The notes under the pieces were generated by a model. That model saw nothing but the letters and a program-made list of their open reading frames with translations. It was not told where the DNA came from and ran no database searches. Positions 8,150-60,450 of a DNA stretch of 64,000 bases are shown one piece after another; positions within the stretch are counted from its first letter, which is position 1; each line of letters opens with the position of its first letter. Source of the DNA: Felis catus (lineage: Eukaryota). The DNA lies in NCBI RefSeq assembly GCF_018350175.1, contig NC_058369.1, positions 1,116,001 to 1,180,000 on the forward strand. The letters run 5' to 3'. The translations under genes and the position numbers were made by a program.

Positions 8150-8560
8150 AAAAGTGAGAATTCAGGGGCATTTGGTACATTCACTGTTCTGTGCAACCAT
8201 CACCTCTGTGTAATTCCAGAATATTCTGAAACCAAAAAGAAACCCCGTCTCCATCAGCCATCATCTCCCCCAGCACGCCCTCCTCCTCCCCGGTCCCCCC
8301 GAGCCCCCCCTCCTGGCCGTGGACGAGCCCGTTCTGGACGTTTCACACACGAGGACTCACACCCCGTGTGGCCTCTCGCGTCTGGTTCCCTCCCTGAGCG
8401 TCGTGTGGTCAGAGTCTGTCCCGCGGCGCGCCTGTGTTCGGGGTCCCGTCCGCGGGGCGCCGGGTGTGGGCACCTCCCTCGTGCTCCCGGCCGTGGGATG
8501 TGCGCGTGCGCGGTGGCCACGGTCATGTCCGCTCACCTGTCAAGGGCACCTGGCTGCCGC
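8150..8560 (-). mobile_element. L1M (L1MB-like) 3' end fragment, GC-rewritten
   Basis: 'attcaggggcatttggtacattcactgttctgtgcaaccatcacctctg' followed by a GC-rich version of the 'ctatggatttgcctattctggacatttcatataaatgg' segment. Confidence 0.75.
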
Positions 8561-8934
8561 GTCTCTGGGCGTTGTGCTCTGTGCTGCTGTGCAGCGTGTG
8601 TTTGTTTTCAATGTGCGTGTTTGGGGACTAGGTTTTTTGAGTGCTGTACTAGTTTTTCAAACGATATAAATCTGTTGCCGCCCATGTTTAAAACTTGGGG
8701 AGACGTTACCTAAAAGCTGCCGTCCCAGCCTCTGTATGAACAGTTGGCCACCCTTGGGTCCAGCGGCCACCTGGGGCCCCGAGGCCCCTCATGCAGGGGT
8801 CTCTCAACACCTGTCATCTCCAATAACAGAAGGGTGAGCCCCTGAGAGTGGTCTGACGGCGCGTGCGAGGTGAAGCGAGGGCCCCCCTCTGCGAGAGCCC
8901 GCCTGGTCTCCATCCACGCCCGAGGATGGCCTTG

Positions 8935-9700
8935 GTCATCCATTCAGCAAATATTCACCGAGTACCTACTATATGCCAGACACAGTGCTAGAAACATCGG
9001 TGAACGAGGCAGAGATCCCGACCCTGGTGGGAGTAGTGTTCTCAATGGGGGAGACAGACAATTGGAAATAAGTAAATGATATAGCATGATTTAAGTGCTA
9101 TGGGGGGGGGGGGGCGGGGGGAGTAGAACAGGGTAGGGGACTAAGAGGTGGTCCGTGTAGTCCTCTGAGGACGGTGGGATATGAACAGTTCTAAAGAGGG
9201 GGAAGGGTATTCCAGGCAGCAGGCACAGTCTGTGCAAAGGCCCTGGGGGCAGTACCAGGCCTGCGTGTTGGAGGAACCGAGGGGAGGTCCGCGGGGCTGG
9301 AGCAGAGTGGGCAAGCGGGAAACACGGGGGAATGGAAGGGATGCAGGGGATGGGGGCAGGTCGCACAGGGCCTTGGGGACTTCCGTGAGGACTTAGGCTT
9401 TCACGGAGGGAGGTGGGAGCCTCCGAGGGCTGCAGGCATTAGGGGGTGGGACCTGACTCGGGTGCTCACCACCGTCCTCTGGTGGCCGCTGAGGGGAGGG
9501 CGGACGGGGGCGGGGCGACGGTGGGACCAAGCGACCCCGGGGACCAGGGTGGGGGAGACTGCCTGAGGAGACGAGGTGGTGGACTGGGTGGACGCCAGGA
9601 CCGGGAACAAGTGGGCAGATTTCGGATCTGAAAACTCCGGGGAGATTTCCTGACGGAAATGGGTGTGGTAGTCAGACTGAGTCAAGGTCAAGGATTTGGG
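8935..9700 (-). mobile_element. L2 LINE 3' fragment
   Basis: 'cattcagcaaatattcaccgagtacctactatatgccagacacagtgctag', 'tgtgcaaaggccctgggg' and 'gagtcaaggtcaaggatttgggcct' are typical antisense L2 segments. Confidence 0.7.
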
Positions 9701-10189
9701 CCTCCGCACCAGGAAACATGGGGGTACCAGTGCCCGAGGTGGGGATGGGACTGGGCGGCCTGGGGGTGAGAGTTGGCACCTTCAGGGTCTGGAGTTGAGG
9801 GTGAGGGCCTGGTGTCGGACCAGGGAGTATCGTCTGCACACAGGGGAGGTGAGCGTACAAGAAGCAAGGCCAGAGGGGAACATTAGCCTGGGGTGGGGGG
9901 GCATGGGGGAGGGTCAGGGGTCCCCGAAGCCGCATGACCAGGGAGTGTCGAGAAGGCAGGAGGGGGACACCTTCGAGCTGTTCGGAGCACGTGGGATGGT
10001 GTCCAAGAGAGACTGGAGGCAGGGGCTGCGTTCCCCGAATTCCAGGAACTCTGCGCAAAGGGGCAGAAAGGCCAGAAGAGCTGGAGAGGGACAGTGGGAC
10101 AGGGGTCCAAGGAGCAACGTCGGCGGCCCTGCGGGGCAGAAGCCAGTAGAAAGGGGGACAAAGTGAAGCAGGAGCCAGGGGGATGCAAC

Positions 10190-10830
10190 AAGGAGGCCGA
10201 CCTCGAGAAAGGGCGAGGGCCCCGCGCCCAGGTTGAGGGCCACCGGCGCGGCCGCCAGGGCCGGACCCCGGACCCCGAGGAGGGCGCGGCGGGAGCCGGC
10301 GGTGCAATGACAGGGGCGGCCGCCAGAGGGCGCAGCCTCCGCCTTCCCCGGGGACGGACTCCGGGGAGGCCCTGGGGAGGGTCTGGCTCCCCGCCCAAGC
10401 CACACCCGCCCTCGGGGCTCGGGAGACCGCTGGAATCTGGGTGTCTATCGCCTAGGAAGGGGTCCGAGACCCTCATCGGCTTCTCGGTGCTCCCGGGGAC
10501 GCCAAGCCCTCACCAAGGGCCCCCCCCCCCGCCTCCAGTCGGGAGCTGGCACACGGCCGGCGTGCGGAACGTGGGCAGCCCCCTGGGCACAGGGGCCAGG
10601 CGGGGCACAGACAGCGGGGGCGGGGGACCCTCTGGGGAGGAGCCCTGTCACGCCCACGAGCAGCCCCAGCGGCGCAGGCTCCCCTGCCGCCCGGCTCCCG
10701 GTGCCGGAAGGGGGCGGGCGCGGGACGCCCCCGGGCGCCGTGTCACCGCGCCTCGGTTGCCGGGTAACCGAGCGGGAAGGAGGGGGGCGCAGCTGCGAGA
10801 GGCGTGGGTGACACGGGACGGCAGCGCGCT
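10190..10830. promoter_or_regulatory. Intergenic CpG island with CTCF consensus and RFX X-box
   Basis: CCGCCAGAGGGCGC at 10320-10333 fits CTCF core CCRSYAGRKGGCRS; GTTGCCGGGTAAC at 10756-10768 is X-box-like. Confidence 0.6.
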
Positions 10831-11060
10831 CTGCTTCCAGCAGCCCCCTCCCCAGGCCTTAGGGCTGAGGGGGCGTCATCCCAAGCCCCCACCAGGTCCC
10901 TAGATTCAGGGCCCCACTGCCTCACTTTCTGCAGCGGGACGCTGGTGACCTGGGGGCTACCCTGTTGCGTGGGACACAGAGACTCAGAGAGTTCTCCGGC
11001 TGAAGGCCAGAGGTGAGAAAGACCACACAGTCACCAGAGTCGGGTTTAAAAAAGGGCTTG

Positions 11061-11066
11061 TTTAAT
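11061..11066 (-). terminator. KLF16: KLF16 polyadenylation signal (ATTAAA)
   Basis: Minus strand reads TGTATTTA-ATTAAA, with an upstream UGUA and a downstream GU-rich tract (GGTGACTGTGTGGTCTTTCT). Gives a ~1.9 kb 3'UTR, similar to human. Confidence 0.7.
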
Positions 11067-12965
11067 TAAATACAAGGAAAAGGCCAGGCAGGGCAGGGTA
11101 AGGTGGGGGGGGGGGGGGCGCCACCTGACAGCACGAGTCCCTTGGGGCCCTCCCCTTGAGATGCCACAGCGAAGTGGCTGGAACCAGGTCCCAGTGACCT
11201 CCAGCTCCTTGGGGGAGGAGGGGCACAGGTCTGGCCAGACCCCTGGACACGGGAGAGGGGCCAGGGACGCGTCCTCGGCCTCCTGGGCCCTCAGACCCAC
11301 ACTTCACGTCCTGTGGACAGGCACCAGCCAGGGATGGGACAATCAGGAGGACGTCCATAAAGACATAAAGGAAAATGGGACCCCAGCCTGCCCCCACAGA
11401 CTAAGGCATCTCAGCAACACTGCTGGCAGGGAGGGTTTAAGGGCACGAATGGGCCAGCCCTGCCAAGATCTGCCCAGAGACTGGGCCCGAAGACCCTTCC
11501 CAGCCCAGCTCCAAAGGGCTTCCCTGGCCTCCTCCCCAGGACCCCAGGCACCCACCCCCTGATCCTGCCAAGGCAGGTCCAGTCCACACCGCCATCCAGA
11601 TCCCCAGCCCCCAGTGGGGAGACAGAAGGGTTCTGGAACACACATGGGTGCCAAAAACCTCCTGCAGCCAACAGTGGGCGATAGGTCCTTTCAGGGTCTT
11701 GGGACAGGGACCCTGGGTCTGTCCCATTCTAGGGCACGGCCCTCAGTCCCTACCCAAAATGAAATCCAACCGAAGCCACAGTGGGAAGACACCAGGAGGG
11801 GTCATGGCGCTTACCCCTCCCTACCATAAGTAGGGATCATACAGACCTTCCCCCCCAACACCCACACCCCCTGAGGACAATGGACCACCCATGGGGCCCA
11901 GATCAAGAAAGGGATTGGCGCCTGAAAAAATATTCTATCCGGTCCAAAAAAGCGAGCTATCCCATGGGGTTCAGGGGTCAGCCCTCATGCTTCCTGCCCT
12001 TGCAAAGCAGGACCTCAACCTCTGGTCCAGGGGCACCTGCAGGGAAGGGCTGCCCGATGCTCAATGACTGTCATGGTCCCAAACAGGAGGGATTGATTGT
12101 CATGTGATGCTATGGAAGGCCAATGCTGGGGACTCTACCCCGAAGGGAGCAGTCCTCACTCACACACTCACACACCCACCCAGAGGGGGGCCGCTCACTG
12201 CCCCCCTCCTTCCTACCAGCAGAGACAGAGGAAAATAAATAAGCAGGCATCTGCCCCAGCCCGTGTTATCCACCTTCCCCAAACGAGAGTCAAAATGCTC
12301 TTTGGAAGAACCCCTTTCTCTCCCTCCCTACCCCAGTTTTAGGAGCAAAACCTGGACCCTACTGCCTCCCCCCTCCCGGCCTCCCCCTTCCCCATCCTGC
12401 CCCCACTGCTGGGGAGCCGGGTGGCAGGGCAGAATCTGTGGACACCTGAGATTGAATACCCGGATGGGGGCGGCTGGAGCCGCACCCCAATTCCCTGAAC
12501 GTCTCCAATGGCTTTCAGTGGGGTGGGGGGCCCCGGGCGGGGTGGGGGTGGGGCCGCGGGAACCCCCGGTTCGTCTATGGCTCTTTGCACACATCATCCC
12601 AACCTGGAGAGGAGGGCTGGGGGGCCAAGTCTGAGCACTGGTTACGTGCCCCTTTCCTGGGCCGCTCCCCCCAGACCCACCCTCTCCGAAGCAGGGAGGC
12701 GGCGATGGGGGGAGGGGAGCGCCGGCCGGCTGCCCACCTGGGGTTCCTGTTTAACACATAGGAAGAGAGTTATCCGACATGGCTATTTACACACACGGGG
12801 CCCCAGCCACCCCTCCTAAGGGCCGCCACCCCCCCCACCCCCCCAGTGTCGGGGACACCGGCTGTCGGTCCGTGGCCCGCCCCGGGCTGTGGACAGCAGG
12901 CGTTTTGCTGGTGCTCCAGGCCCAGGCCCAGCAGGGGTGCGGCAGGGTGGGCTGGACTAGGGCCC

Positions 12966-13267
12966 TTACAGGCCAGAGGGGGCCGGGCTGGGCGCGGGGC
13001 TGGGCGCGGGGCTGCCCGCCAGACTGCAGGGCAGCGAGTCGCTGGGCGAGGTGCTGCGGGCGCCCGGGCGCCGGAGCAGTTCCGGGCGGAAGCCGGGGTG
13101 GCGGCGCGCGTGCTTGGTCAGGTGGTCGCTCCGGGTGAAGCGCTTGGAGCAGAGGGGGCAGGGAAAGCGCTTCTCGCCGGTGTGCGTCCGGTGGTGGCGC
13201 GCCAGCTCGTCGGAGCGCGCGAACTTCTTGTCGCAGCCAGGCCAGTCACAGGCAAAGGGGCGTTCAC
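12966..13267 (-). CDS. KLF16: KLF16 coding exon 2 (zinc fingers 2-3 and Pro/Ser tail)
   Basis: Acceptor ctctgcccag|GT. Translates [56 protein letters not shown]...[15 protein letters not shown], with TAA at 12966-12968. Confidence 0.96.
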
Positions 13268-15299
13268 CTGGGCAGAGGAGGCAGAGGGCAGACAGCGTGG
13301 TCAGTGGGGGGGGGGGGAGGGGGGCGGGGCAACTCGTCCCCCCCCCACCCCCCCGTTCTAGAGGCTGAACTCCGGGCGTGAATTCAACACGTGGAAATGT
13401 GAAGAGGAAAGCCCCACTCACTTCAAGAACCCCTAATTAGTATTCCTGCCCTTTCTTTCCTATGAACTCGTAGTAATTCCACGAGCAGTTTCCGTGCGTT
13501 AAAAGAAGACCGTGCGGAGCCCGAGCCCTTCCAGGCCCGCCCCCGCGGCACCACCGCACCGCCTCCGTGACATCCGTGACAGGGTCTCGCGGTGCACGAG
13601 CCACACACACGTGCGCGCCTGCTCGGAACGCATGCGGGGTTTTGCAGGGGCTTCTCCCGATGCAAATGGATCCCGCCGTCCCCACCTCCACCTCCGCTCT
13701 CCTTTGGAGCTTACCGGAGGCTCTCAGGTGTTCACAACCCGTTGGACCCCTCCTTTTGAAAATGACCACCCCGGACGCAAAGTCGGTGTGGGGGTGCCTG
13801 GGCGGATTCCCGTGGCCCGACGACCCACTGACCCTTGTGGCCCCTCTATGTTTGGAGAACACGTGAAGGGCCTCTAGGGCCACCTGCAGCCCCACACAGG
13901 GGCAGAGGGAGAAGGGCACGAGGCCCAGGAACATACGGCCGCCGGGAAGGGGAGGGCCTGGAGGCCACGGCCACTGGCCTCACCCCGCCCCCGCCCCCGC
14001 AGAACAGACCGTGAGGGGAGGGGCGGACCGCCACCCTGCAACTTCCTCTGCAGACCCCTCCCACCTCCCCGGCTGGCCTCGCCCATCCTGCCGTGAACCC
14101 AACGGCGCTGCCAGCCCCGAGCGCCTGTCCCCACCCACCCCTCGCGTCTGGGGTCTCAGCCCCAGAACGCTTCAGCCCGACCCCCCAGCGAGTATTGTCA
14201 GCATCTCCCCGGCCGACCCGGGAGCTCCGAGGGCCCCACCTCTACGCAGGGTCCACCGGGGACCCCGCCACGCCCCAGGCCAAGGGGTGGTAAGCATCCT
14301 GGAGCTTGCACCCTTGCGCCCCGCGCCGGTCACCTGGAACCCTGGACTCCCCAGGCGTTGCTTTGTCCACGAGTTCTGGAGTGTGTGTGTGGTGGGGGTG
14401 TGGACAGAATGTGGGCACCGATCCGTGATGCCCGCACCCCTGTGCTATATACCCTTTGTGGCACTGGATGGAGCCCCACATAGGAAGGCAGAGCGCTGGA
14501 ATTGGGGGAGGCCACAGAGCGGTCAGGGTGGTCACATCCTGGGTTACATGCTGGCCCTGCAGTGACCCAGGCTGACCTTGTCTCAGGGAACACACCCAGA
14601 AGAAGGTACACGGTCTAGGATCAGAGAAAGGCTCCCCAAACAGGACCGATGGTGGAGGTAACCAGGAGCCAGCAGGAAGGCCCACGGGACAGACCTGTGG
14701 CCGTGGCGGGGAACAGGGTAGGCCAGGAACATCTCTGCTCTGAAAGCTAAGGGACTGTCCCGGGGAGAACCGCTGGGGAGGGGTGGGGGAGGGGAGTAGG
14801 GGTCAGAAGAGGCAGAGGGGCTCCTGCCATCTCCCAGGGCCCAGGAAAGAGCGGGACCAAAACCTCCCCTCCCCCACCCCTTCTTCCTGGCTACCACCAG
14901 CACCAAAGGAGGAGGTGGAGTCCAGCGGTCCCCCCAAGAAGATTTCTTGTGGGTTGCCTGTGGCTCAGGCTCACGCCTGGGGCAGCACATGCCCCAGGAG
15001 ACTGTGAGTCCAGGTGAGCTTGTCACCTACCCCTGGGGGGGAGGGGAGGTTACACAACTATGCCCAAGACCTCGCAGACCCTAAGTCTCTGGGGCTGCAC
15101 CCTTCCCTGGAACAATCCAGAAGGCAGGGGGAGGGGTCTCAGCAAGGGCATCGTCTACGGGAACCACGGCGCTCAAAACAGCCCGGAAAGGACCCCTACC
15201 CCACCTGGATGGCGGAAGGCTTGGATCTGACAGTTCCCCGGGGCTGCAGTCTGGGGGAGGGGAGTCCGGTTTTGGAGGCGGGGCTGCTGGCTTTAGACC

Positions 15300-15810
15300 A
15301 GACCCGGTGCCAGGGGGAGCGGCGCCCCTTCCGAGGGGCGTGCAGTCCTGTCGCCATCTTGCAGGGCGCAGGCGGGGCGGAGGGGGGGCGGGCATCCCGC
15401 TGCTGGCGCGCCCCGCAGTTGGCTCACTTCCCCATTTCGGGCGGCGGGACTAGTACCCGCCTCCCAGCCTCCCCTCCTCCGGCAGTTCTACTTTGCGATG
15501 AGCAGGTTGCAAGAGCGGTGCCAGCGCCCACTGGGGCAGGACACATGCAGCCGCCGGGAACACAGCTGCCGCACGTAGCTCGGTGGCGGCGGGGACAACC
15601 GCAGCCCAGCCGGCCTCGCTCACGTGGTCCCGCTCCCTCTAGGGCGGGGGGGGGGGGGGGGGGGGGTCGGGGTCGACTTGCCGCCGGCTGGACGCCCGCC
15701 AGCCCCGCCCCACAGCCAGTTGCTGGGGCGCTCACGTGCACACGCGGGTGGCGGAGACCTGGGCGCGGAGGCTTCCCGCCGCCCCCACAACGTCGAGCGA
15801 ATGCCTGCAA
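15300..15810. promoter_or_regulatory. CpG-rich candidate intronic enhancer in the KLF16 intron
   Basis: Local CpG enrichment, YY1-like CGCCATCTT (~15352), GC boxes, CACGTG E-boxes at ~15621 and ~15733. Confidence 0.5.
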
Positions 15811-16544: not shown

Positions 16545-16840
16545 TAAGTGATCTCTACACCCAATGTGGGGCTCAATCTCACCCCGAGACGAAGAGTTCC
16601 ATGCTCCACCTACTGAGCCGGCCAGGTGCCCCGTTCTGGGATTTTATTATTATTATTTCCTTAATTTATTTAAGAAAGGGAGGGTGCAGAAGCGAGGGGG
16701 GACAGGGAGGCAGAGGGAAAGCGAGAGAGAATCCCAAGCAGGTTCTGTGCGGTCAGCTCCATCCCCGGAACTGTGAGACCACGACCTGAGCTGAGATCAA
16801 GAGTCAGACGCTCAACTGACTGAGCCACCAAAACGCCCCA
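16545..16840 (-). mobile_element. Two tandem CAN-SINEs
   Basis: Reverse-complement SINE heads ('tgagccggccaggtgcccc', 'ctgactgagccacc'). Confidence 0.8.
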
Positions 16841-32749: not shown

Positions 32750-34100
32750 CTGGCAGTGGGGCAGGGTCAGCCGCGTCCAGCAGCAGCCTGGGCGAGTGAG
32801 CTGCATGCGCGCGCGCACAACCCCCCCCCCCCCCCCCCCCCCCCCCCCGCCTGCCCTCCTGGGGCAGTCCCCCCTCCAACCTTCCTGCACAGCCTCCAAG
32901 CAGTAGGGTTGGGCCCAGTGACAAGCCCCCTACCCCCACCCCTGTCCCCATTAATGAACAAGTCTGCTCAGTAGGAAAGTAGGGCCTGGGTAGGTGTGCA
33001 GACAGGTGGCCCTAACCCTGCCTCACCAACAGTACCAATTTGGACCACACATGCCGAGTGCCCTTGGTGAGGGCCCCAAGGCCACGCCTGGGCTCCTGGG
33101 GGCAGGGCAGGCCCTGAGGCCTCTCCTGCTCTCCACCCCCCAACACCTACCCCCCACAAACACACTTGCCCAGGGACACACCCAGTTCCCAGTAGCACAT
33201 AGGGAACAGGTCCCTCCTGGCATTCCTCGCCCATCCCTTAGCCACGGGAAGTCATGGCAGTCATGCCCCCTGCCTTATCGGCCCCTTGGTTGCAGCCCCT
33301 TGGTGTCGGCACGTCCACCTTATCACAACACCGGCAGACCAAGAAGAGTGTCTCCCGCAGGCTGGTGGGCACCACCTCCTTCTCGGGGCACCTTCCCTAC
33401 AGCGTGGCCGGGTCCCGAGCCTCCTCAGCACCAGCTCCCACGTCCAGGCCCCAGCCTCTTCCCCCACCCTGCCACCACCCCCAAGAGTCTCACCCTCCAC
33501 CCCCAGCACAGCTGATCCAGCCCCAAGACAACTCCACAGCCTGCAAATGCCCGTTCCCATCTGGCTGGGGACCCACTAGCCACCCTCCCCAGGTACGAGG
33601 CCTCCACAGACCTGGACCCCAACATACCAAGGGAACACCCCTCTGCTACACCTCATCTGTGCAGCCCACCCAGGCACCAAGAGTCCACCTCCCTGTCCAC
33701 CCAGGGGCCGTCCACACCTGTCTCTGTCCCGGCGACCTTCCAGGTTAACAATCGCCTGGCCCTGAGCTTCAGGAATGCCACGTGGCCTTCTGCCTGCCAC
33801 CCCGCCGCTCCTCCTCAGCCTGCTCCCCGGACACGGAAGCTACCACTGCACTGAGCACCAGCCGGTCCAGCCCTAACACTCGGACACACGAGAGGCAGAC
33901 GGAGAAGCAAATCTTCCCCAGGCCTCCCCAGCCCCTGGTCACCAGTGGGGCCCAAGCCTCCTGCCCTCCTACTGATTCTCTCTCTGCGGGATCAGGTCTC
34001 TGGAGGACGGTGCTGGCCACAGGACAGATGGGCTGGATGGACAGAGCTCAGATCCCTCACACCACAGTGCAGTGTGGTTCTGCCAGCCACCAGCAGCCAG

Positions 34101-34504
34101 CAGGAGCAGCACCAGGGACTGAGGACCAGCACCAGCAGCAGGAGCAGCACAAGGGACTGAGGACCAGCACCACCGGCAGGAGCAGCACAAGGGACTGAGG
34201 ACCAACACCGCCAGCAGGAGCAGCACAAGGGACTGAGGACCAACACCGCCAGCAGGAGCAGCACAAGGGACTGAGGACTAGCACCATCGGCAGGAGCAGC
34301 ACAAGGGACTGAGGACCAACACCGCCAGCAGGAACAGCACAAGGGACTGAGGACCAGCACCGCCAGCAGGAGCAGCACCAGGGACTGAGGACCAGCACCA
34401 CCAGCAGGAGCAGCACAAGGGACTGAGGACCAGCACCACCGGCAGGAGCAGCACCAGGGACTGAGGACCAGCACCGCCGGCAGGAGCAGCACCAGGGACT
34501 GAGG
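34101..34504 (+). repeat. 38-bp minisatellite (~10.6 copies) in an ABHD17A intron
   Basis: Unit CAGGAGCAGCAC(A/C)AGGGACTGAGGACCAGCACC(A/G)CC(A/G)G starts at 34101, 34139, 34177 ... 34481. Confidence 0.95.
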
Positions 34505-35524
34505 AAGCCGAGGACAGCACGTACCTGCACCACGCTGCCCACGCTTGGTCCCCAGTGCCAGGGCTGTGCCAGGGGACCCCACTCCTGGGGCCTGCAGCAG
34601 GAACTGCCTGGTGCATCACTTGGGCAACCAGGGTCCCCACCTCCCCAGGCCAAGCTGACTTTGGTCCCTGCAGGAATGGTCGGGGGGGGGGGGGGAGTGG
34701 CAGGTCGGGCAGGCAGGGCTGAGATGGGGCAGCCCCAGCCCCAAGAAGGCAGTGGACAGGGCCCCGTGTCTGGGAGGGCCAGAGTCAGGGTGGCCTCCTT
34801 CCAGAGGAATCTCTGGGCTCAGCGACCAAGCAAATGAGCTTCAGTGAGAGAGGAAGGGGGCTGTCTGGGATCTAAATAAACAGGATTGGGGGGGGGGGTG
34901 TCCAGGGAAGGGGGCTTGGCCGAGGCCCTGGTGGCCCTCAGTCAAGCACAGAGGTATGTGCCTCTGCTTGCTAGCCTCCCACCGGCCCCCAGATGCTGTG
35001 CTGGACACCAAACTGCCTGACAGAACCTTCTGGAACTCTTCAGAACCCTCTAGGCCCAGAGGAGCCCTGCCCTGAGGAGGAGGCCACCGTCAGTGGCCAT
35101 GCATGCCTCACGGGTCAGCCCTGAGAACCATGACAGAGCAGCCCTACTCCTCCCTGCACCCCAAATGCTCCCTGGCCCCAGGACTCTGAGTATTTTCTCA
35201 GAGCCCACACAGCCCACCTCCTGGGCCCAGGTCCTCTATCCACCCCGTGCAGGCAGAGCCCCCACTCCCCTAGGTACAGCCCATCTATACCCCTGCCGGA
35301 CAAGGGGTTCCCGGGAGGGGAGGGCAGATCTGAAGACTGCCCGCCCCACCTCCCCGCACACCAGCATGCCTGTCGCCACACCAAGGGGACACACGTCAGA
35401 CCTCACCCTGCCGCCCAGTGTGGCCGCTGATGGCCCTCTCCTGAGGACCACCCCCCAGGGCCTCCCCAGGGAGGCCGGCCTGAGGCCCCGGGTGCTCACC
35501 CGCTACGCCCCACACACAGCTCAC

Positions 35525-41400: not shown

Positions 41401-41419
41401 TTCGTTCTTTCACTCATTC

Positions 41420-46720: not shown

Positions 46721-46804
46721 TTTTTAATTAATGTTTAGACTTCTTGGCATCTGCCCAAGAGTGAGAGCAGGGACTTGAACCGGGGAACACACCTGCCACG
46801 AAAG

Positions 46805-47155
46805 TTAGGACGTCCTGCCACCTGCCACCGCGTGGAGGGACCCGGAGGACACTGTGTGCGGTGACAGAAGCCAGACAGAGAAGGACACGTCCCGCGTGAC
46901 CCCACGCACAGGGGGTCCCCAGAAGAGTCCCATCCACAGAGACAGAAAGCAGATGGTGGGAGCCAGGGGTGGGGCAGGGGGCGGGGAGTCCGTGCTTCAT
47001 GGGGACAGGGTCTTGGTCTGGGGAGATGGAAAGTTCTGGAGACGGATGGTGGGGGCTGCTGCACCACAGTGTGACTGCGCCTGATGCCGCTGATCTGTGT
47101 GCTTGGAAAGGGTTCAGATGGTGAATTTGATGTTATGTGTATTTAACCACAGTAA
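46805..47155 (+). mobile_element. L1M (L1MB-like) 3' end, GC-rewritten
   Basis: Near-identical core to 6642-6719; ends 'gatggtgaatttgatgttatgtgtatttaaccacagtaaa'. Confidence 0.75.
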
Positions 47156-50059: not shown

Positions 50060-51416
50060 CATTGTCACCTCCACATCTTGAGTCATCAGGGAAATGCAAA
50101 CCCAAAGCATACTGAGATGATTCTTCACACCTGCTAGGACAGCTACCTTCAAAAAGACAGGCCATCGGGGCGCCTGGGTGGCTCAGTCGGTTGGGCGGCC
50201 GACTTCGGCTCAGGTCATGATCTCGCAGTTCGTGAGTTCGAGCCCTGCGTCGGGATCTGTGCTGACGGCTCAGAGCCTGGAGCCTGCTTCGGATTCTGTG
50301 TCTCCCTCTCTCTCTGCCCCTCCCCCGTTCATGCTCTATCTCTCTCTGTCTCAAAAATAAATAAACGTTAAAAAACAAAAAAAAAGGCCGTAACAAGTGC
50401 TGGTGAGGGTACGGACACGTCAGAACCCTCGCACACAGGCAGGTGGAGGCCCGAAACGGTGTAGTCGCTGCGGAAAACAGGCCGGCTGCTCCTCCGAGGG
50501 TTAAACACGGAGTTGCCATCCGATCCAGCGAATGAAAGCACATGTCCGCACACAAACTTGTGCACACGTGTTCCCAGAAGCACTACTTGCAATGGCCAAG
50601 AAGTGGACGCAGCCCAAATGTTCACCCTTTGATGAACGGAATGTGGTCCAGCGCGCTGGAATAGTATTCAGCTGTAAAAAGGAGAGGCATGCTGGCACAC
50701 AGAGGGGGTGAGCCCTGAGAACATCACACTCGGTGAAAGGAGACACAAAGGGACAGATGCTGTGTGTCCCACTCACATGAAATGTCCAGAAGGAGCAAAT
50801 CCGTAGAGTCAGGGGAATTGGTGGGTGTCAGGGGTCTGGTGTGGAGGGTGACTGCTGATGCAGTCTTTTCAGAGAGATGAAAATGTTCTGAAATACATTA
50901 TGGCCACGGATGCACAGCTCTGCGAATGTACTAAAAATCACTGAACTGTACACACTTTAAATTTTTTTTAACGTTTATTTATTTTTGAGACAGAGAGAGA
51001 CAGAGCATGAACGGGGGAGGGGCAGAGAGAGAGGGAGACACAGAATCCGAAACAGGCTCCAGGCTCGGAGCCGTCAGCACAGAGCCCGACACGGGGCTCG
51101 AACTCACGGACTGCGAGATCGTGACCTGAGCCGAAGTCGGCTGCTCAACCGACTGAGCCCCCCAGGCGCCCCTGAACTGTACACTTTAAATGGGTGAATT
51201 TTTTGGTAAGTTTTTATTTATTTAAGTAATCTCTACACCTAGCGTGGGGCAGGAGTTCACCACCGAGATCAAGAGCCGCACGCTCCACTGACCGAGAAGC
51301 CCGGGGCCCCTAAATGGGTGAATTGTATGGTATGTGAATTCTATCTTTATACAGATGTTGCAGAAATTGATAATTGTGTCTAATTACTTAATTTTTTAAG
51401 TTCATTTATACATTCT

Positions 51417-51450
<34 letters not shown>

Positions 51451-52275: not shown

Positions 52276-52339
52276 CAGAGATAACATGTTAAATAAAAGC
52301 GGGTAGCAGGGACTGAGTTGCTTCGTCTGAGAAAGGAAA

Positions 52340-52850
52340 AGTGGTGGCGGCTGAGGACCTGCAGACTCACCTCCAGGCAGGCCAGTCCGGCGGTGGGCGG
52401 GGCGCTCTGCAAGCCCCGCCCCCCCAAGCCGCAGCCCCGCCCCTGTCCCCACCCAGCCGGCGCCGAGCCAGGGCTTGCCTGCAGGCGCAGATCCCGAGCA
52501 GCGCCCTGGAGGCCCCGCCCCAGCCCTTCCATCACTCGCCGCTACACGCCTCTCGGCCAATAGGACCTGGCTACCGCTGCCTGATGGCCAATAGAAATTG
52601 CTCTTCCAGAGCGGGGGCGGGATGTGGCGCAAGTCCCTCCCCGTAGCTTCGGGGCCACGCGGGATCCACGTCGGGACGTAGAGGACCGAGCTTTGGCGGG
52701 GTACAGGGGCAAGGGGATTCTTCCAACCCCTGACGCGGGGCACTGCCTTCTCCTGAGGAAGGGCCCCTATTGCCCCAAGTAGATATCGCCAAGTCGGAGA
52801 AGAGCCTCCGTTTTTCGGGGCGGGGTCTGCCGCCGAATAGACCCTCCTGC
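52340..52850 (-). promoter_or_regulatory. Orphan CpG-rich promoter-like element with tandem CCAAT boxes and a minus-strand donor
   Basis: GGCCAATAG twice (CCAAT at 52557 and 52588, 31 bp apart), multiple GGGGCGGGG, donor GAG|GTGAGT at 52371/52370. Confidence 0.5.
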
Positions 52851-53029
52851 CCCCCACCCCAGACCCGGGGTTTGGGTCTCTCCTTGGCCTGGCTTGTCCC
52901 TGTCTTTGCAACAGCCGAAGGCGAATGGGTGCTGTCATCATTCCAACTTACAGGTGGGGAAACTGAGGCTCGGAGCCCCAGGACCCTAGTCCAGGGTCCC
53001 TCACCATGGTTAGTACATTGTGGGCTCTG

Positions 53030-53335
53030 GGCAGGATTTCTTAACTTTGGCACTATTGACACTTGGGGTGGATGATTCTTGCTTATATGGGATTCAGCAG
53101 CATCCCTGGCTCCCACCCACTCTATGCCAGGAACACCCCTAGTCGTGAGGACCACGGACATCTTCAGACATTGCAAACGTGGGGGAGCAAAGTTACTGAT
53201 TCTCAGGGCCTGGTTCTCAAAGTCAAGAGCACTGGAACCCCCGGGGGGTGGGGGGCAACCCAGAATTCTGATTCGGCGGGTCTGAGTCAGGGCCCAAGAG
53301 GCTGCATTTCTAAAGGAGTTCAGGTTGTACCTGGT
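53030..53335. mobile_element. MER20-like and MER5-like DNA transposon fragments
   Basis: 'ttaactttggcactattgacacttgggg...agcagcatccctggctcccacccactctatgccag'; 'ttctgattcggcgggtctgagtcagggcccaagaggctgcatttctaa'. Confidence 0.6.
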
Positions 53336-53629
53336 GTCGCTGAGAGGCCCGCTACCAACAAGCCACCCCTGCTTCGCTGAGTGACCTGGAGGAGGCAAGG
53401 CCCCTCAGATGGGGAGGGGGGGGGCGAGGCTGTGGGTGTGGATGCTTTAGGGAGCCCTCAAATAACTGCACAGCTTATCAGGACTGAGGCCAGGGATGCA
53501 GACATGCTGCCTTTAGTAGGTGAGTGAGATGGTGCCCACGCGATTCTTAGCGGTTGGGGAGGCTACACGGGGCTCTTAAGGGGATGTGTGAGCGATCCCG
53601 TCTGTCTTGTTTTGTTTCTTTTCAAAACT

Positions 53630-56345
53630 ATTTATTTATTTTTGGGAGAACACAATCGGAAGAGGAGCAGAGAGAGGGGGACAGGGGATCTGAAGTGGGC
53701 TCTGAGCTGACAGCACGGACCCCCCCCCCAATGTGGGGCTTGAACTCACAAACTGCGAGATCGTGATCTGAGCTGAAGTCAGACATTCAACCGACTGAGC
53801 CACCCAGACGCCTCTACTTTTTAAATTTTTTTTAAAGATGGATTAATGATTTTGAGGCCTTTTAAAAAAGTTTAGTTATTTATTTTGAGACAGAGAGCAA
53901 ACAAAAGGGCAGAGAGAGAGAGAGAGAGACAGAGAGACAGAGAGACAGAGAGAGAGAGAGGGAGGGAGAGAAAGAATCCCAAGCAGGCCCCAAGCTGTCA
54001 GCACAGAGCCCAGTGTTGGGCTCGATCTCACCAACTGTGAGATCATGACCTGAGCCGAAACCAAGAGTTGAATGCTAACCAACTGAATCACCAGGTGCTT
54101 CTGTTTTCTCTTTATTTATTTTTAATATTAAAAAAAAATTATTTTGGGGGTACCTGGGTGGCTCAGTCGGTTAAGTGTCTTGACTTCGGCTCAGGTCATG
54201 GTCTCACGGTTCATGAGCTCGAGCCCCGCGTCGGGCCCCAAGCGGACAGTTCACAGCCTGCTTGGGATCCTCTCCCTCTCTCTCTGCCCCTCCTCCAATC
54301 ATGCTCTCTCTCTCTCTCTTTCTCCCTCAAAAATAAACATTAAAAATTTTTCTAGGGCGCCTGGGTGGCTCAGTCGGTTAAGTGGCCGACCTCGGCTCAG
54401 GTCATGATCTCACGGTCCGTGAGTTCGAGCCCCGCGTCGGGCTCTGTGCTGACAGCTCAGAGCCTGGAGCCTGTTTCAGATTCTGTGTCTCCCTCTCTCT
54501 GACCCTCCCCTGTTCATGCTCTGTCTCTCTCTGTCTCAAAAATAAATAAATGTTAGAAAAAAATTTAAAAAACAAAAATAAAAAAAAAATAAAAATTTTT
54601 CTAAAAATTTAAAATAAAAATTTAAAGTAAAAATGTATTTATTTAAAATAAATAATTTTAGTTGATTCATCTTAAATACATAATTTTAATTAATTAATTT
54701 TATTAATTTAATTAATGAATTTATTTTTGAGAGCCCCCCCTCTTGGGCTCAGCGCTACCCTTAGCATGCAGACTCTGTGCTGACTTTTGTGAGAAGGATT
54801 TGGGCGGGCGGGGAGAGGTCTACTTTGGTTTTTCCCATTCAGACTGGAGTTTTTTGTGTTGATGCAGGGATGCGTTTTACAGGCCACATGTCTGCAACAG
54901 CCTGACCGCAGTATCCCCTGAGGGAGGGGGCCTTGCACCGCAGACAGGTGGTTTGGGCAGAGGATTTCAGAGAAGGTGCCCATTCCTGTCCTGGAAGGCG
55001 ATGGAGGTGGCACAGAGACAGGACGTAGGAAGGCAAAGATGACTTCTTTTTACCCTGTATGTCTTTCTTTTTTTTTTTTTTTTTTTAATTTTTTTTTTTT
55101 TTCAACATTTATTTTTGGGACAGAGAGAGACAGAGCATGAACGGGGGAGGGGCAGAGAGAGAGGGAGACATAGAATCGGAAACAGGCTCCAGGCTCCAAG
55201 CCATCAGCCCAGAGCCTGACGCGGGGCTGGAACTCACGGACCGCGAGATCGTGACCTGGCTGAAGTCGGACGCTTAACCGACTGCGCCACCCAGGCGCCC
55301 CTGTATGTCTTTCTTTGTTTTTCCTTTGGAGGTGAATTTCACATAAGATAAAGTTAGCTGTTTTAGAGGGTCCCATTCAGTGGTGCAGAGAGCACATGCA
55401 CACTGTTGCACACGCATCAACTCTTATCTTGTCATAGAACATTTTTATCACCCCAGAAGGAAATCCCATACCCCTTTGCAGCCCCTCGCCACTGCCCCTC
55501 CCCCAGCCCCTGGCTCCCAGTTTGTACTATGTACATTGTATTTATGTATTTATTTATGTATTTAATGTTTATTGATGGGGGGGGGGTGCAGTGACAGAGG
55601 AAGACACAGAATCTGAAGCAGGCTCCAGGCTCTGAGCTGTCAGCACAGCCCGACACGGGGCTGGAACCCACGAACTGTCAGATCATGACCTGCGCTGAAA
55701 TCAGACACTTCACCAACTGAGCCACCCCCCCCACTAAATTGTTAAAAAATTTTTTTTTAATGTTTTTATTTATTTTTGAGACAGAGAGAGACAGAGCATG
55801 AGCAGGAGAGAGAGAGGGAGACACAGAATCCGAAACAGGCTCCAGGCTCCGAGCTGTCAGCACAGAGCCTGACGCGGGGCTCGAACTCACGGACTGTGAG
55901 ATCATGACCTGAGCTGAACTCAGTTGCTTAACCGACTGAGCGCCCCATAAATTGTTTTAAATAATAAAAAAATAGGCAGAAAAATACATTGAGGAGTTTC
56001 ATTTTTTATATGCAGAAAATCTATTCTTTGCTTTTAATATGCCTATCAAACACCATGAAAATTTTTAAAAAATCCGCAAAAGGGGCTCTACATGAGTCTG
56101 AGGGACACCTCCAGGGGTGGAGAGATCTGTGTAACAAAAAACATGGAGCACCTGCATGGCTCAGTCAGTTAAGCTTCTGACTTCAACTCAGGCCATGAGC
56201 TCACCATTCATAGATTCTAGAGCCCCGTGTCAGGCTCTGTGCTGACAGAGCCTGGAGCGTGCTTCTGATTCTGTGTCTCCCTCTCTCTCTGCTCACACTC
56301 TTGTCTGTCTCTCTCTCAAAAATGAATAAACGTTAAAAAAAAAAA
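53630..56345. mobile_element. Dense CAN-SINE (SINEC_Fc-type) cluster of ~8 copies; young copy at 55066-55301 has TSD tgtatgtctttct
   Basis: Full-length felid-type SINE sequences in both orientations. Confidence 0.88.
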
Positions 56346-56724
56346 AGCCCGAACACTAAAGGACATATTAATCTGAGTTTTTATTTGTAAGAGAAAAAGG
56401 AAAGTGACCAGCTGTGAGCAGCATTGTTTCCTGGGATGTTGTTTTCACCAGGAATAAACGCGGACATCACGATGCTTTGCAAACTAAGAGAAACACCTGC
56501 GGATTGATTCTCAGGGCCCCGCAGGGTTGAGGGACATGGTGGCAGCTAGGGTTCTCCCCTGCAGCCACCCCCTCCGTGGATAGACATCTGACAGATGGGG
56601 GGGGGGGGTTCCTTGGTTCTTGCAGGAAGTAAGCATCCAGAAAATGGAATTCCAGTACCCTCCCTCCCCCGCCCAGGGTGCTTTTAGAGCTGTATTTTTC
56701 TCTTTACTCAGCAACGGGGTTAAA

Positions 56725-56925
56725 CCAGGGTCGTCCAACCTCTGCTCTGTGGACATTTGGGGTTGCTTGTGTTGCGGGCGTCCTGTGCACCGCAGGGTGT
56801 TTAGGGACATCCCTGGCCTCCCGGTTTTGATGCCATTTGATGGTAAGCGCACCCCCAGTTGTAACAACCACAAATGTCCCCAGACATTGGCCAATGTCGC
56901 ATTGCCCCTGGTTGAGAACCGCTGG
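56725..56925 (+). mobile_element. MER20 DNA transposon
   Basis: 'tccaacctctgctctgtggacatttgggg...cctgtgcaccgcagggtgtttag...cccagttgtaacaaccacaaatgtccccagacatt...ctggttgagaaccgctg'. Confidence 0.75.
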
Positions 56926-57229
56926 GTTAAATCTGTTTAACTAGAATGAATAACTGGAGTTGCTCGTAAGTTAGGACGTTTTGCCTAAAAGAGTCAAGAG
57001 GTCCCCTTCATCTACTGTACAGATGGGAAAACTGAGGCCAAGCATCGCCCAGTCCTAGACCCTTATGGGAACCTGACCCATCCATCTGGGTCTCTGGGGA
57101 CAGCCCTTTTAGGAGCCACGTGGCAGCAGCAACCTGGGCTGGGGGAGCGTCACAGCGGGGGTCGTGTGCCCCTCTGCCTCAGTCCCCCTACTCTGACTCC
57201 CTAAACGGCAGCCAAGGTTTTCTTTTTCT

Positions 57230-57720
57230 GGCCGCCCGCAGGAGGTCTTGAACCCTCAACTCCGCGCTCACCCGCTCTCGAGAGAAGGGCGGCGCTCGGC
57301 GGCCAGGCGCGCAGCCTTGTGGGGATTGTAGTCCGGACCCCGCCCCAGTCCCGCGCCGACCCCGCCCCTGGAACTACGCTCCCGTCGTGCCGCGCGGCGC
57401 AGGCGGAGGCGGGGCAGCGGTCGGTTGCTAAGACTTGTGAGGCGCAGTCCTCGCGTGCGGCTCTTCAGGTAAGCGCGCGGACCCGGGGGCTCGGTTCTCT
57501 CGGTCCCGGCTCCCACGGGCGGCGAGCCGGGGCAGTCAAGGAGAGCCTCGGCTGGCGTGGGGGCGCCGGCCGCGCGGGGCGCGAGGAGGCAGTCGGGGGC
57601 ATCCGCTCGTGTGCGCGTGCGCGCGGGGCGCCCGGGCCGCGGGCCGCCGCTCCCCGCGCCCGTCGACCTTTTGCGCGTGCGCGCGCCCCTGCGGCCGGCG
57701 GTGGAGGCCCCGTACAGCCA
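57230..57720 (+). promoter_or_regulatory. SCAMP4: SCAMP4/ADAT3 shared CpG-island promoter and non-coding exon 1 (ends 57468)
   Basis: ZNF143-type ACTACAATCCC (minus, 57322-57332), GC boxes, donor CAG|GTAAGC at 57468/57469. Human ADAT3 and SCAMP4 share exon 1. SCAMP4 coding exons lie beyond the window, so this assignment rests on synteny. Confidence 0.75.
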
Positions 57721-57724
57721 GCTG

Positions 57725-57878
57725 NNNNNNNNNNNNNNNNNNNNNNNNNNNNNNNNNNNNNNNNNNNNNNNNNNNNNNNNNNNNNNNNNNNNNNNNNNNN
57801 NNNNNNNNNNNNNNNNNNNNNNNNNNNNNNNNNNNNNNNNNNNNNNNNNNNNNNNNNNNNNNNNNNNNNNNNNNNNNN
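57725..57878. other. Assembly gap in the CpG island
   Basis: Run of N. Confidence 1.
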
Positions 57879-58383
57879 GGTCATCGCGGCCAGCCCTCTG
57901 CCTCCGGTCCTCCCTTTCACTAGCTTCCCGCCAGCTGCTGGCGTCTTAAACGTTGGTAAACGTGGCAAACATTAAACTTTCCTGATATTGAAAGAGTGGG
58001 TTTTCGAGGCCTTCTCTTACCCTGGCTCCGCGGATAAGGGGTCTCCTACCACACCCCACATGCCCAGTGTTCGCGAACCGTCACACACAGAGGGGCCGTT
58101 TGCAGGGTGGCCAGGTTGGGCAGGTGAAGCGCAGGACGCGCCGGGAGGTTAGAATTCCGTGTACACGACAAGCGATGTCCATGTTCGCGTCAAGCCCCAG
58201 AGCTTGCAAGGGACCCCACCGCGCTCGCAAATTCTGCGCATGTCCAGAATTCGAATTTAGCGGCCGCACTCCAATGGGGAATTTGTTAGGGATGCAGGTG
58301 GTGGCAGCCAAGCCCTGGAAACTGTATTGGAATCCAGCAGCTACCGCCCTGTGGGCGTGTGTGAGGCTCTGGCCCTCTGTTCC

Positions 58384-58593
58384 TTCTGCTCAGGACTCCC
58401 CACCCTGCTTCCCCTGCCTTCCGGGTCCAGCTGGGGTCACCGCCTCCGAGGAGCCCTCCTGGACTGCCCACCACAGGGCACTAGCCCTCGGAGATTCTGC
58501 CAAGGACTCCCCACCCTGCCTCACCTGCCTTCTGGGTCCAGCTGGGGTCACCGCCTCCGAGGAGCCTTCCCATACTGCCCACCACAGGGCACT
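58384..58593 (+). repeat. Local tandem duplication, 111-bp period, ~1.9 copies
   Basis: 'ttctgc..aggactccccaccctgc...gggtccagctggggtcaccgcctccgaggagcc...actgcccaccacagggcact' at 58384 and 58495. Confidence 0.9.
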
Positions 58594-59404
58594 GCGCCCC
58601 CTGGGAGCTGTACCCTGGGACAGCGTGGAGCTCATGTGGCTTTTCTCAGCCTTGGGAGGTGGGGATGGGTTCCCATTTCTCAGAGGGGGCACTGAGGGTG
58701 GGGTCTAGGGCAGGTGCCCAAGGTCTCCCAGGCAGGGAACAGCTGGGCTGGGTGTGGACTTCTAGGACAGGGCAGGACACACACCCAGGTCCGGGTTCCG
58801 GCCTGCCTTCGTCACCCAGGGACAAGATGAGGCCTCGAGCCTACGCTTTCCTGGGTGTATAAATGCCATTTTCTGTCTCCCTCCCAGAGCCAGTTGCCCC
58901 GTATCTTCGGGGGGTCCCGGAGCACCCGTGCTTCCAGCGGGGAGGTGCCTAAGCTGCCAAGGGGGCTTGAGGTTAGGGTCCCGTCTCCCTGGTCCAGCAC
59001 ACCCTCTGGGGGCCGCCGATGCTGTTAGTGCTCCCGGCCCCCGGACTCCTGCACCAGAGGCAGAGGCGCTGCAACCAGAAATGAAAACAGGCGGTTCTGA
59101 GCCCGCCGCGGCTGTCCTTGGAGATGCCAGGGTGGGGACTGAGCTGGGCGAGACCAGCAGAGTGTGTGGGGGGTAGAGGCAGCCAGGTGCCTGGAGCTGG
59201 GGACTCATCTGGGGCTTTGGGGACAGAGGAGGAGCCCAGGTCCGGCAGCCGACCCCATCCTGCCCCACATCCCTGGGCGTGTTTATACAGAACACACGCG
59301 CGTGGACACTGCTTGCAGCCGTGCTGGCACTCCCCCCAGGGCGTTGGGGTTGGGGGTTCAGGCGGGTCACTGTTTCCTGAAACCGCTTCTTTGTTTTTCT
59401 TTCA

Positions 59405-59586
59405 TTTTTTTTTTTTATTTCTTAAAGTTTATTTAGTTTGAGAGAGCGGGATGGGGGCAGAGAGAGAATCCCAAGCAGGCTCCACACTGTCAGTGCAGAG
59501 CCCAACATGGGACTCGAACTCACGAGCCGTGAGATCTTGACCTGAGCTGAAGTCAGCGCTTAACCGTCTGAGCCACCAGGTGCCCT
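59405..59586 (-). mobile_element. CAN-SINE
   Basis: Poly-T followed by the reverse SINE body. Confidence 0.85.
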
Positions 59587-59889
59587 GAAGCTGCTGCTTT
59601 CTTATCTGTGGGGGAGGCTCAGGGCCCCTGCCCTACACAGGGGCTCCGAAGGCAGAGGCGGTGAGCTGGCCCGCCTGGCCAGAGCCTGGTCAGATCGCGA
59701 CTCTGCCTGCCTGTGGCCCCAGGCGAGGCCTTGCACCCCACAGAGCCTTGTCTTTGTCCTGCGGAACGGGGACAGTTCCAGGAGCTCCCTCCTGTGTCAC
59801 TGGGAGGACACGTGGCGGGGAGCGCACCAGTGGTTGGGCCTCGCGTGGAGTCTGCTGACCTCGCGCCTGCCCCGTGTCCCTCCCCCTCC

Positions 59890-60450
59890 CTGCTTCTCTA
59901 GCAGCCTTACTGCTTTGCGGCTCACCCGTTTAAAGCCTCCGGCTCTGGGGTTTTCAGTACCTCCGCAGGGGTGCCGAACTCTCCTCGCTGTCTTCTTACA
60001 GAAACCTCCATGCCCCCCCCCAGAGGAAGCCTCGTCCCCATCACCAGTCACTCCTCCATCCCCTCCCTGGCTCCCGCGAGCCCCCTTCCCGTCCGTGGAC
60101 GAGCCCGTTCCGGACGTTTCACACACGTGGACTCACACCCCGCGTGGCCTCTCGTGTCGGGTTCCCTCCCTGAGCGTCGTGTGTTCGGGGTCCGTCTGCG
60201 GGGCGGCGGGGGTGGGCGCCTCGCTCCTACTCGCGGCCGAGGGACGTGAACCTTTCGCGGTGGACACGCGTATCCGTCCGTTCATCCATTGAAGGGCGCT
60301 TGTGCTGTATCCGCCGTCTGGCTGCTGTGAACACACGTGTGCGGGGTTCTTTGTGGACGTGTGTTCTCGGCTCTCGTGGGCACACGCCTGGGCGTGGAGG
60401 GGACCGGTCACTGGCTCACACGGTGACTGTGCTGCGACTTTTCCCTCTTC
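59890..60450 (-). mobile_element. L1M (L1MB-like) 3' end, strongly GC-rewritten
   Basis: Core near-identical to 8317-8407; continues 'gttcatccattgaagggcgcttgtgctgtatccgccgtctggctgctgtgaacac'. Confidence 0.7.

What the first reader, a model, noticed from the sequence alone, without database searches (positions are those of the whole stretch)
8317..60183. Ancient L1M 3'-end copies 52 kb apart share a ~94% identical GC-rewritten core (pair A)
Seen in sequence: 8317-8407 and 60093-60183 align without gaps over 91 nt with 5 mismatches (ccgtggacgagcccgttcYggacgtttcacacacgWggactcacaccccgYgtggcctctcgYgtcKggttccctccctgagcgtcgtgtg). Both differ massively, and in the same AT->GC direction, from the recalled L1MB segment (ctatggatttgcctattctggacatttcatataaatggaatcatac...). 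Established: L1MB elements predate the eutherian radiation, so independent copies should be far more divergent and CpG-depleted. Inference: either concerted evolution by non-allelic GC-biased conversion among dead L1 copies, or an uncatalogued younger carnivore repeat derived from an L1MB tail.
Basis: partly seen in the sequence, partly recalled or inferred. Interest (0 to 1): 0.7.

Follow-up and report, generated by a model that had tools for sequence, protein, structure and literature searches.

The report
Chromosome-end domain homogenising dead repeats
In the last 5-6 million bases of one cat-family chromosome, about a hundred scattered, long-dead jumping-gene fragments carry the same GC-rich patch inside otherwise unrelated old copies, and a second species carries its own version, most likely because DNA repair has kept copying the patch between them over far longer distances and in far older repeats than such copying is known for.

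Summary
The 91-nt pair is real (5 mismatches) but is only two members of a family. A 26-nt motif from it has 89 of 89 genome-wide matches in the first 4.6 Mb of contig C2 (KLF16/ADAT3-like region of a felid). Each copy is an old, independently truncated L1M tail; its flanks are 55-65% alike, while its central ~170 nt is 85-92% alike and shares transversions and deletions. Independent GC drift (null 0.63-0.70), a young transposon and assembly error are rejected. A second L1M subfamily carries a different patch (55 of 55 matches within 6.5 Mb). LTR-like, L2-like and, more weakly, MER20-like repeats show the same local sharing; young SINEs and eight other GC-rich chromosome-end samples do not. 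Contigs of a second organism pile on the core only, with 8 near-fixed differences: species-specific concerted evolution. Best reading: GC-biased non-allelic gene conversion across a megabase domain, with no distance decay for family A. What confines it is unknown. The scan earlier noted only single GC-rewritten L1 fossils and converted pairs. Ten literature searches found no such domain; Dfam and human or dog orthologues could not be checked.

The parts
8150..8570 (-). Old L1M 3' tail hosting family-A patch, copy 1 (L1 sense strand inferred to be minus; the subfamily label L1MB is recalled)
8290..8511 (.). Family-A converted tract, copy 1 (approximate ends); includes a 29-nt extra segment right after the core
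8317..8407 (+). 91-nt core of the finding, 20 of 20 family-A diagnostic sites
59926..60325 (-). Old L1M 3' tail hosting family-A patch, copy 2
60071..60243 (.). Family-A converted tract, copy 2 (approximate ends); contigs of organisms A, B and C pile up only here
60093..60183 (+). 91-nt core of the finding, 20 of 20 family-A diagnostic sites
6537..6957 (+). L1M tail of a different subfamily carrying the family-B patch (22 of 26 B sites); opposite orientation to the A copies
46792..47130 (+). Second family-B copy (24 of 26 B sites), 83% like the first over 293 nt
50591..50990 (+). Unconverted L1M tail in the same window (2 of 20 A sites); internal control whose best matches lie all over the genome
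12969..13436 (-). Context: C2H2 zinc-finger exon (KLF16-like, name recalled)
61308..62525 (+). Context: deaminase ORF (ADAT3-like, name recalled); with the former it suggests synteny with human 19p13.3

Best explanation
The patch is one shared GC-rich tract found in about 110 old, separately inserted L1M tails in the terminal ~4.6 Mb of one felid chromosome, most likely written into them by repeated GC-biased non-allelic gene conversion between dispersed dead copies. Shown: confinement, old independent hosts, tapered tracts, shared indels and transversions, patchwork variants, parallel families, species-specific near-fixed differences. Inferred steps: (1) one copy was first rewritten towards GC by a local recombination hotspot, as single L1 fossils are at other chromosome ends; (2) break repair, probably meiotic, used non-allelic copies up to megabases away as templates, and GC-favouring mismatch repair made the GC-rich haplotype the usual winner, carrying neutral deletions along; (3) rising identity made further conversion easier, so a core formed and its shoulders spread outward, separately for each repeat subfamily; (4) sweeps went on independently after lineages split. 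What makes this domain permissive (high break density, spatial clustering of the chromosome end, or hotspots seeded by the patches themselves) is untested.
For: Confinement: 40 of 40, 13 of 13, 89 of 89 with reversed-pattern control 0; an unconverted copy from the same window hits all over the genome. Profile in 19 copies from an unbiased census: core 0.85, peak 0.90, flanks 0.65 and 0.55, against 0.74, 0.72 and 0.68 for 24 ordinary copies. Shared non-convergent marks: 1-nt deletion in 92 of 94 A copies vs 0 of 15 controls, 2-nt deletion in 64 of 75 vs 1 of 20; 9 of 26 W-to-S changes in the core are the same transversion. Independent hosts: 5'-side homology ends scatter from 301 to 858 on the consensus in 55 of 56 copies. 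Patchwork: 65 of 66 variant pairs show all four combinations; C2:1760334 has a B-type flank with an A-type core. GC bias: departures from the family consensus are 10.7% W-to-S against 2.4% non-CpG S-to-W. Penetrance: 26 of 29 tails in 264 kb are A or B. Parallel families: B; LTR-like; L2-like; MER20-like. Second organism: 71 contigs of run X21 lie on the core and almost nowhere else, with 8 differences at 83-100% of its depth against 0-7% in X3; six are T-to-G/C at sites where the felid keeps the ancestral base. Family B loses identity with distance (Mantel rho 0.25, p 0.001).
Against: Family A shows no distance decay from under 20 kb to over 2 Mb (Mantel rho -0.03, p 0.68, 99 copies), and 11 of 12 variants are not spatially clustered, whereas published TE conversion falls off within about 10 kb. 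Young SINEs in the domain, the easiest substrates, show no domain-specific variants (0 of 465 tests pass Bonferroni). An AT-rich block inside the domain holds 0 converted of 7 L1 tails, one of them an unconverted old-type copy. 38 of 64 ancestral A/T sites in the core stay A/T, and organism B differs at only about 8 sites, which could mean selection. No orthologous insertion site was compared between species, and no conversion event or break hotspot was observed directly.
Confidence: 0.8

Rival explanations
1. Conversion is the vehicle but selection is the driver: the patches are binding sites for a domain-specific protein (regulatory, structural or meiotic-pairing), refined and spread as in Drosophila miranda ISX elements.
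For: Slow change of the consensus between organisms A and B, whose unique flanks do not lay at 80%; retained A/T sites; SINEs spared; an E-box hexamer in 59 of 99 A and 15 of 37 B copies vs 2 of 24 controls, and a G4-like run in 76 of 99, 21 of 37 and 4 of 24.
Against: Families A and B share no new word longer than 9 nt, and at least four unrelated repeat types are affected. Changes are overwhelmingly W-to-S (81 of 87 substitutions), as non-adaptive GC bias predicts. The motifs are expected by-products of GC rewriting.
Confidence: 0.1
2. A local master template (RNA or cDNA from a transcribed copy acting in cis) overwrote old copies by homologous replacement, as Tf2 cDNA does in fission yeast.
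For: Star-like family without distance decay; cDNA-mediated conversion is documented.
Against: It would need separate masters for two L1M subfamilies, an LTR-like, an L2-like and a DNA-transposon-like family, each with its own range. Variants recombine freely. No RNA data were examined.
Confidence: 0.06
3. A younger carnivore repeat derived from a GC-rich L1M tail spread by retrotransposition.
For: High core identity; copies in both orientations (44 forward, 45 reverse). Dfam was not checked.
Against: Flanks are more diverged than those of ordinary old copies; ends are variable; only 3 of 29 tails in the census lack a patch; confinement to one chromosome end; parallel families.
Confidence: 0.02
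4. Each copy drifted to the same sequence independently under strong allelic GC-biased conversion.
For: L1M copies at other GC-rich ends are GC-shifted too (core GC up to 0.63).
Against: Those copies diverge from each other (17 pairs, 0.40-0.65). Simulated independent rewriting gives 0.625 +/- 0.04 (maximum 0.78 of 20,000) or 0.70 with a context model fitted to the family (maximum 0.86), against a mean of 0.85. Shared deletions and two different patches at the homologous position cannot converge.
Confidence: 0.01

Closest known systems
Non-allelic gene conversion between transposon copies (Alu, LTR): Fawcett and Innan 2019, PMC6598467 (parts 1-2 of 4 read); Doronina et al. 2021, PMC8230782 (passages)
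   Same: Mosaic diagnostic sites, reduced divergence between dead copies, cross-subfamily chimeras.
   Different: There it is rare (about 0.0005% homoplasy in Alu), favours young copies of 89-100% identity and acts within about 10 kb. Here it reaches 26 of 29 old copies in a census, whose flanks are 55-65% alike, spans megabases without decay for family A, affects several families in one domain and spares young SINEs.
ISX elements on the Drosophila miranda neo-X (Ellison and Bachtrog 2015, PMC4384637; abstract and outline)
   Same: Dozens of dispersed dead TE copies on one chromosome share derived variants spread by conversion.
   Different: ISX is young, two selected sites are involved and a binding protein is known. 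Here dozens of sites in very old repeats were replaced, with a GC bias, and no protein is known.
gBGC tracts, PRDM9-independent hotspots and orphan CpG islands (Joseph et al. 2024, PMC11161765, passages; Kocher et al. 2024, PMC11170920, passages)
   Same: A/T-to-G/C rewriting and CpG gain in short tracts; cat is among the species with much overlap of orphan islands and gBGC tracts.
   Different: Those are allelic, single-locus processes, and the passages read do not mention sharing between paralogues. Joseph et al. report a deficit of default-hotspot activity in some felids.
Local repeats of the Firre locus (Hacisuleyman et al. 2016, PMC4820808; passages)
   Same: Repeats confined to one genomic locality; conversion is suggested as a cause of lineage divergence.
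   Different: Those are locus-scale, non-transposon units. Here the units are patches inside genome-wide ancient transposons over 5-6 Mb of gene-rich DNA.

Membership tests
Concerted evolution by non-allelic gene conversion | Internal tract more alike between paralogues than its flanks, with variable ends | tested here: met
   (tract median 166 nt, 10-90% range 124-192)
Concerted evolution by non-allelic gene conversion | Shared derived states that cannot be recurrent (indels, transversions) and mosaic haplotypes | tested here: met
Concerted evolution by non-allelic gene conversion | Copies more alike within than between species | tested here: met
   8 near-fixed differences in organism B; one run only, species and genomic location of its contigs unknown
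Concerted evolution by non-allelic gene conversion | Same host insertion at orthologous sites in outgroups | not testable with these tools
   No other mammalian genome is held; organism B's flanks did not lay at 80%
Alu-type short-range TE conversion | Rate falls with distance within about 10 kb | tested here: not met
   family A flat from under 20 kb to over 2 Mb; family B declines only beyond 2 Mb
Alu-type short-range TE conversion | Young, highly identical copies most affected | tested here: not met
   164 domain vs 275 outside SINE copies, no significant domain-specific variant
GC-biased gene conversion | Excess of W-to-S over S-to-W changes, including transversions | tested here: met
GC-biased gene conversion | Coincidence with meiotic break or recombination hotspots | not testable with these tools
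   No hotspot, PRDM9 or sperm-methylation data available
Young L1-derived retrotransposon family | Uniform identity along the whole element and shared ends | tested here: not met
Young L1-derived retrotransposon family | Genome-wide dispersal | tested here: not met
Young L1-derived retrotransposon family | Target-site duplications around the unit; an existing Dfam or Repbase consensus | not tested
   No TSD search was run; the libraries are not available here
L1MB-type LINE 3' end (host) | Homology to the genome-wide old L1M tail | tested here: met
   outer flanks follow a consensus of 15 scattered copies; the subfamily name is recalled, not assigned by a library
Selected binding-site network (ISX-like) | A bound protein and improved binding of the derived haplotype | not testable with these tools
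   Only motif counts were made

The most novel reading that the evidence does not exclude
The distal arm of this chromosome (human 19p13.3 synteny) is a long-lived mammalian 'conversion compartment': a multi-megabase domain where germline repair routinely uses non-allelic templates regardless of distance, so that at least five ancient repeat families evolve in concert like rDNA, manufacture hundreds of near-identical CpG-rich patches that may seed their own breaks or pairing, and do so separately in each lineage, perhaps also in the syntenic region of other mammals including humans.
Probability: 0.4. Interest if true: 0.92.

Novelty: new variant of a known kind. Interest (0 to 1): 0.82.

Why it matters
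Old interspersed repeats are treated as independent neutral clocks, and ectopic conversion is thought to fade with divergence and distance. A gene-rich domain in which most old copies were overwritten across megabases would break both assumptions. It gives a natural assay for where and how the germline uses non-allelic templates, shows GC-biased conversion acting as molecular drive across paralogues, offers a route to mass-produce matching CpG-rich elements, and predicts misdated or misnamed repeats and rearrangement-prone sites in this region. It is directly testable with existing multi-species alignments.

Tried and rejected
Assembly artefact: rejected (in one search contigs of X3 and X15 match both unique flanks without differences, though no single piece spans the stretch). 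Search bias towards C2: rejected. Independent GC convergence: rejected. Special relation of the two copies of pair A: rejected. Unusual DNA hairpin in the tract: none, z -0.13. A third L1M patch family at C2:1741247: only 2 matches, not a family. Domain-specific SINE variants: none. Long motif shared by A and B: none above 9 nt. MER20-like family: locally enriched and GC-shifted but only 0.66-0.74 alike, with just 3 outside copies as control, so weak evidence. Three 50-kb blocks at 2.75, 3.2 and 3.85 Mb held no detectable L1M tail and were uninformative; so did three of the eight other-end blocks. Run X24 (organism C, shallow) carries organism-A-like variants and was not used as independent support. 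Earlier-finding look-ups by sequence and nearby place found nothing. Literature searches found no description of such a domain. The cat hotspot preprint 10.1101/028043 was seen only as a search listing. No supplements were consulted, and subscription papers and repeat libraries are outside these searches.
Full report
Observation. The two 91-nt stretches align without gaps with 5 mismatches, and their homology continues at about 68% over 428 nt. The window is felid DNA by its SINE content (family label recalled) at C2:1,116,001-1,180,000 of a 169-Mb contig. A zinc-finger exon and a deaminase ORF (2 of 71 ORFs scanned had Pfam hits) fit KLF16 and ADAT3, hence human 19p13.3 synteny (recalled). 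Twenty runs from 11 studies of organism A hold the second copy with its flanks.

It is a family, confined to one chromosome end. All 40 scored matches of the core (127 candidates) lie on C2 below 4.6 Mb at 91-97%. An exact 27-mer gives 13 of 13, and a 26-mer with up to 2 mismatches gives 89 of 89, 44 forward and 45 reverse, reversed control 0; 65 of these lie below 2 Mb. That motif catches 15 of 19 census copies, so the family numbers about 110. A looser pattern gives 29 of 30 there and one on C27. An unconverted L1M tail from the same window finds its 39 best partners across the genome at 67-83%, so the search is not biased. Pair A ranks 68 of 4464 pairs.

Anatomy. A reference was built from 15 of 29 scattered ordinary copies. 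Against it, 47 family-A copies follow the ordinary sequence in the outer flanks and depart from it together in the middle. Of 98 diagnostic columns, 58 are W-to-S transitions, 23 W-to-S transversions, 6 other substitutions and 11 gaps; pairwise identity peaks at 0.92 and falls below 0.5 within about 150 nt. Because those copies were picked by core similarity, I repeated this on an unbiased census of 264 kb of contiguous DNA: 29 tails, of which 19 A, 7 B and 3 other. The 19 A copies are 0.85 alike in the core and 0.65 and 0.55 in the flanks; 24 ordinary copies give 0.74, 0.72 and 0.68. Tracts have a median length of 166 nt. Host homology ends at scattered points on the L1 5' side, 301-858 in 55 of 56 copies with enough context, as expected of separate old insertions.

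Not convergence. Independent rewriting gives 0.625 +/- 0.04, or 0.70 with a context model fitted to the family. A 1-nt deletion is in 92 of 94 A copies and 0 of 15 controls; a 2-nt deletion is in 64 of 75 and 1 of 20. In eight blocks (420 kb) at other chromosome ends of similar GC, 14 tails were found; many are GC-shifted, but 17 within-block pairs are only 0.40-0.65 alike, and neither these nor 8 tails from 16 single 10-kb samples carry patch A or B.

Parallel families. A second L1M subfamily carries a different patch of about 300 nt at the homologous place; its motif gives 55 of 55 matches at C2 0.47-6.45 Mb. Hosts and patches mostly match (89 of 99 A copies have A-type left flanks, 9 undetermined; 36 of 37 B copies B-type), but C2:1760334 joins a B-type flank to an A-type core. 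An LTR-like repeat has 36 of 37 matches below 4.04 Mb, with 14 copies 0.84-0.89 alike over 200 nt and 0.53-0.63 at the edges. An L2-like repeat has its 18 best and 27 of 40 matches at 2.4-6.4 Mb. A MER20-like repeat has 24 of 24 at 0.37-3.66 Mb but only 0.66-0.74 identity. These family names are recalled. With SINEs and the L1M segment masked, an all-against-all search gives 106 nodes in 763 kb of domain against 15 in 730 kb outside, where the groups of three or more are AT-rich L1 coding sequence; the domain sample was partly fetched around known copies, so this contrast is inflated. Beyond 4.4 Mb, 0 of 28 census tails are A and 3 are B. Five of 6 B copies beyond 4.9 Mb keep a T that 5 of 49 inner copies have (read), as if newer sweeps had not reached the margin.

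Second species. Laid at 80% likeness, contigs of X3 and X15 (organism A) cover the unique flanks once and pile on the tract. Run X21 (organism B, none of the sampled words shared) gives 71 contigs almost only on the tract and none on the left flank. At 8 positions 83-100% of its depth differs, against 0-7% in X3: six are T-to-C/G where the felid keeps the ordinary base, one keeps the ordinary base where the felid has C, and one is G-to-C. Of 46 derived positions in this interval, only five show 45% or more other letters in X21 among the 40 rows shown (8 rows were not shown, and the 80% cut-off favours similar copies). So most of the patch likely predates the split, and each lineage has since fixed its own changes across paralogues. 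This rests on one run, and where organism B's copies lie is unknown.

Dynamics. Departures from the family-A consensus are 10.7% at W sites towards S, 2.4% at non-CpG S sites towards W, and 7.4% CpG transitions (99 copies). Several variants segregate among copies at 14-43% and recombine freely (65 of 66 pairs show four combinations). GC-neutral divergence is 1.0-1.2% in the core, against 4.8% in the same copies' flanks and 2.8% in controls (the controls helped build the reference, so theirs is an underestimate). The last overwrite therefore lies, on average, roughly a quarter to two fifths of the way back to insertion, tens of millions of years if these L1s predate the eutherian radiation (recalled).

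Results against a simple conversion model. Family A has no distance decay (rho -0.03, p 0.68), while B has some (rho 0.25, p 0.001). Young SINEs are untouched. An AT-rich block at 2.2 Mb has 0 of 7 tails converted. 38 of 64 ancestral A/T sites persist in the core. The tract folds no better than shuffles. A G4-like run lies beside the core in 76 of 99 A copies against 4 of 24 controls, which may be cause or by-product.

Mechanism and verdict. I commit to GC-biased non-allelic conversion with founder sweeps (0.8). Confinement, tract anatomy, shared marks and species specificity are shown; the meiotic origin, the direction of transfer and the cause of confinement are inferred. Published TE conversion is rare, short-range and favours young copies; ISX is the closest multi-copy case; gBGC papers describe single loci. 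Ten searches found no megabase domain of this kind. Earlier notes of this scan describe single rewritten L1 fossils and converted pairs. The process is known, but its scale, age, penetrance and domain restriction appear undescribed: new variant of a known kind, interest 0.82.

Noticed in passing
window 6537-6957 and 46792-47130; C2 0.31-6.45 Mb: Family B: a second, longer homogenised GC-rich patch in another L1M subfamily, often ending sharply on one side.
   Followed up: yes
L121:1873-2158 (C2:1181873-1182158): LTR-like ancient repeat with a ~200-nt GC-rich shared tract; 36 of 37 matches within C2 below 4.04 Mb.
   Followed up: partly
L105:1160-1266 (C2:3145755-3145861): L2-like repeat whose 18 best matches all lie at C2 2.4-6.4 Mb, a range shifted from that of family A.
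   Followed up: partly
L134:3805-3943 (C2:1683805-1683943): MER20-like repeat, dense in the domain (44 copies in 563 kb sampled), GC-shifted, moderately homogenised.
   Followed up: partly
L314 (C2 about 1760334): Chimera: family-B-type left flank joined to a family-A core.
   Followed up: partly
L305:350-406 and L278:669-725: Several A copies carry a short internal duplication in the right shoulder of the tract.
   Followed up: no
C2:1185990-1186157 and C2:1259140-1259306: A 168-nt pair 73 kb apart at 93% identity, not assigned to any family.
   Followed up: no
window 34024-34593: 38-nt minisatellite of about 15 units.
   Followed up: no
window 50167-50375 and 50964-51172: Inverted SINE pair 95% complementary, 588 nt apart, one arm abutting the unconverted L1M tail.
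   Followed up: no
C2:2200001-2250000 and 4800001-5350000: AT-rich, L1-rich blocks interrupt or bound the GC-rich domain; family A stops near 4.6 Mb while family B continues past them.
   Followed up: partly
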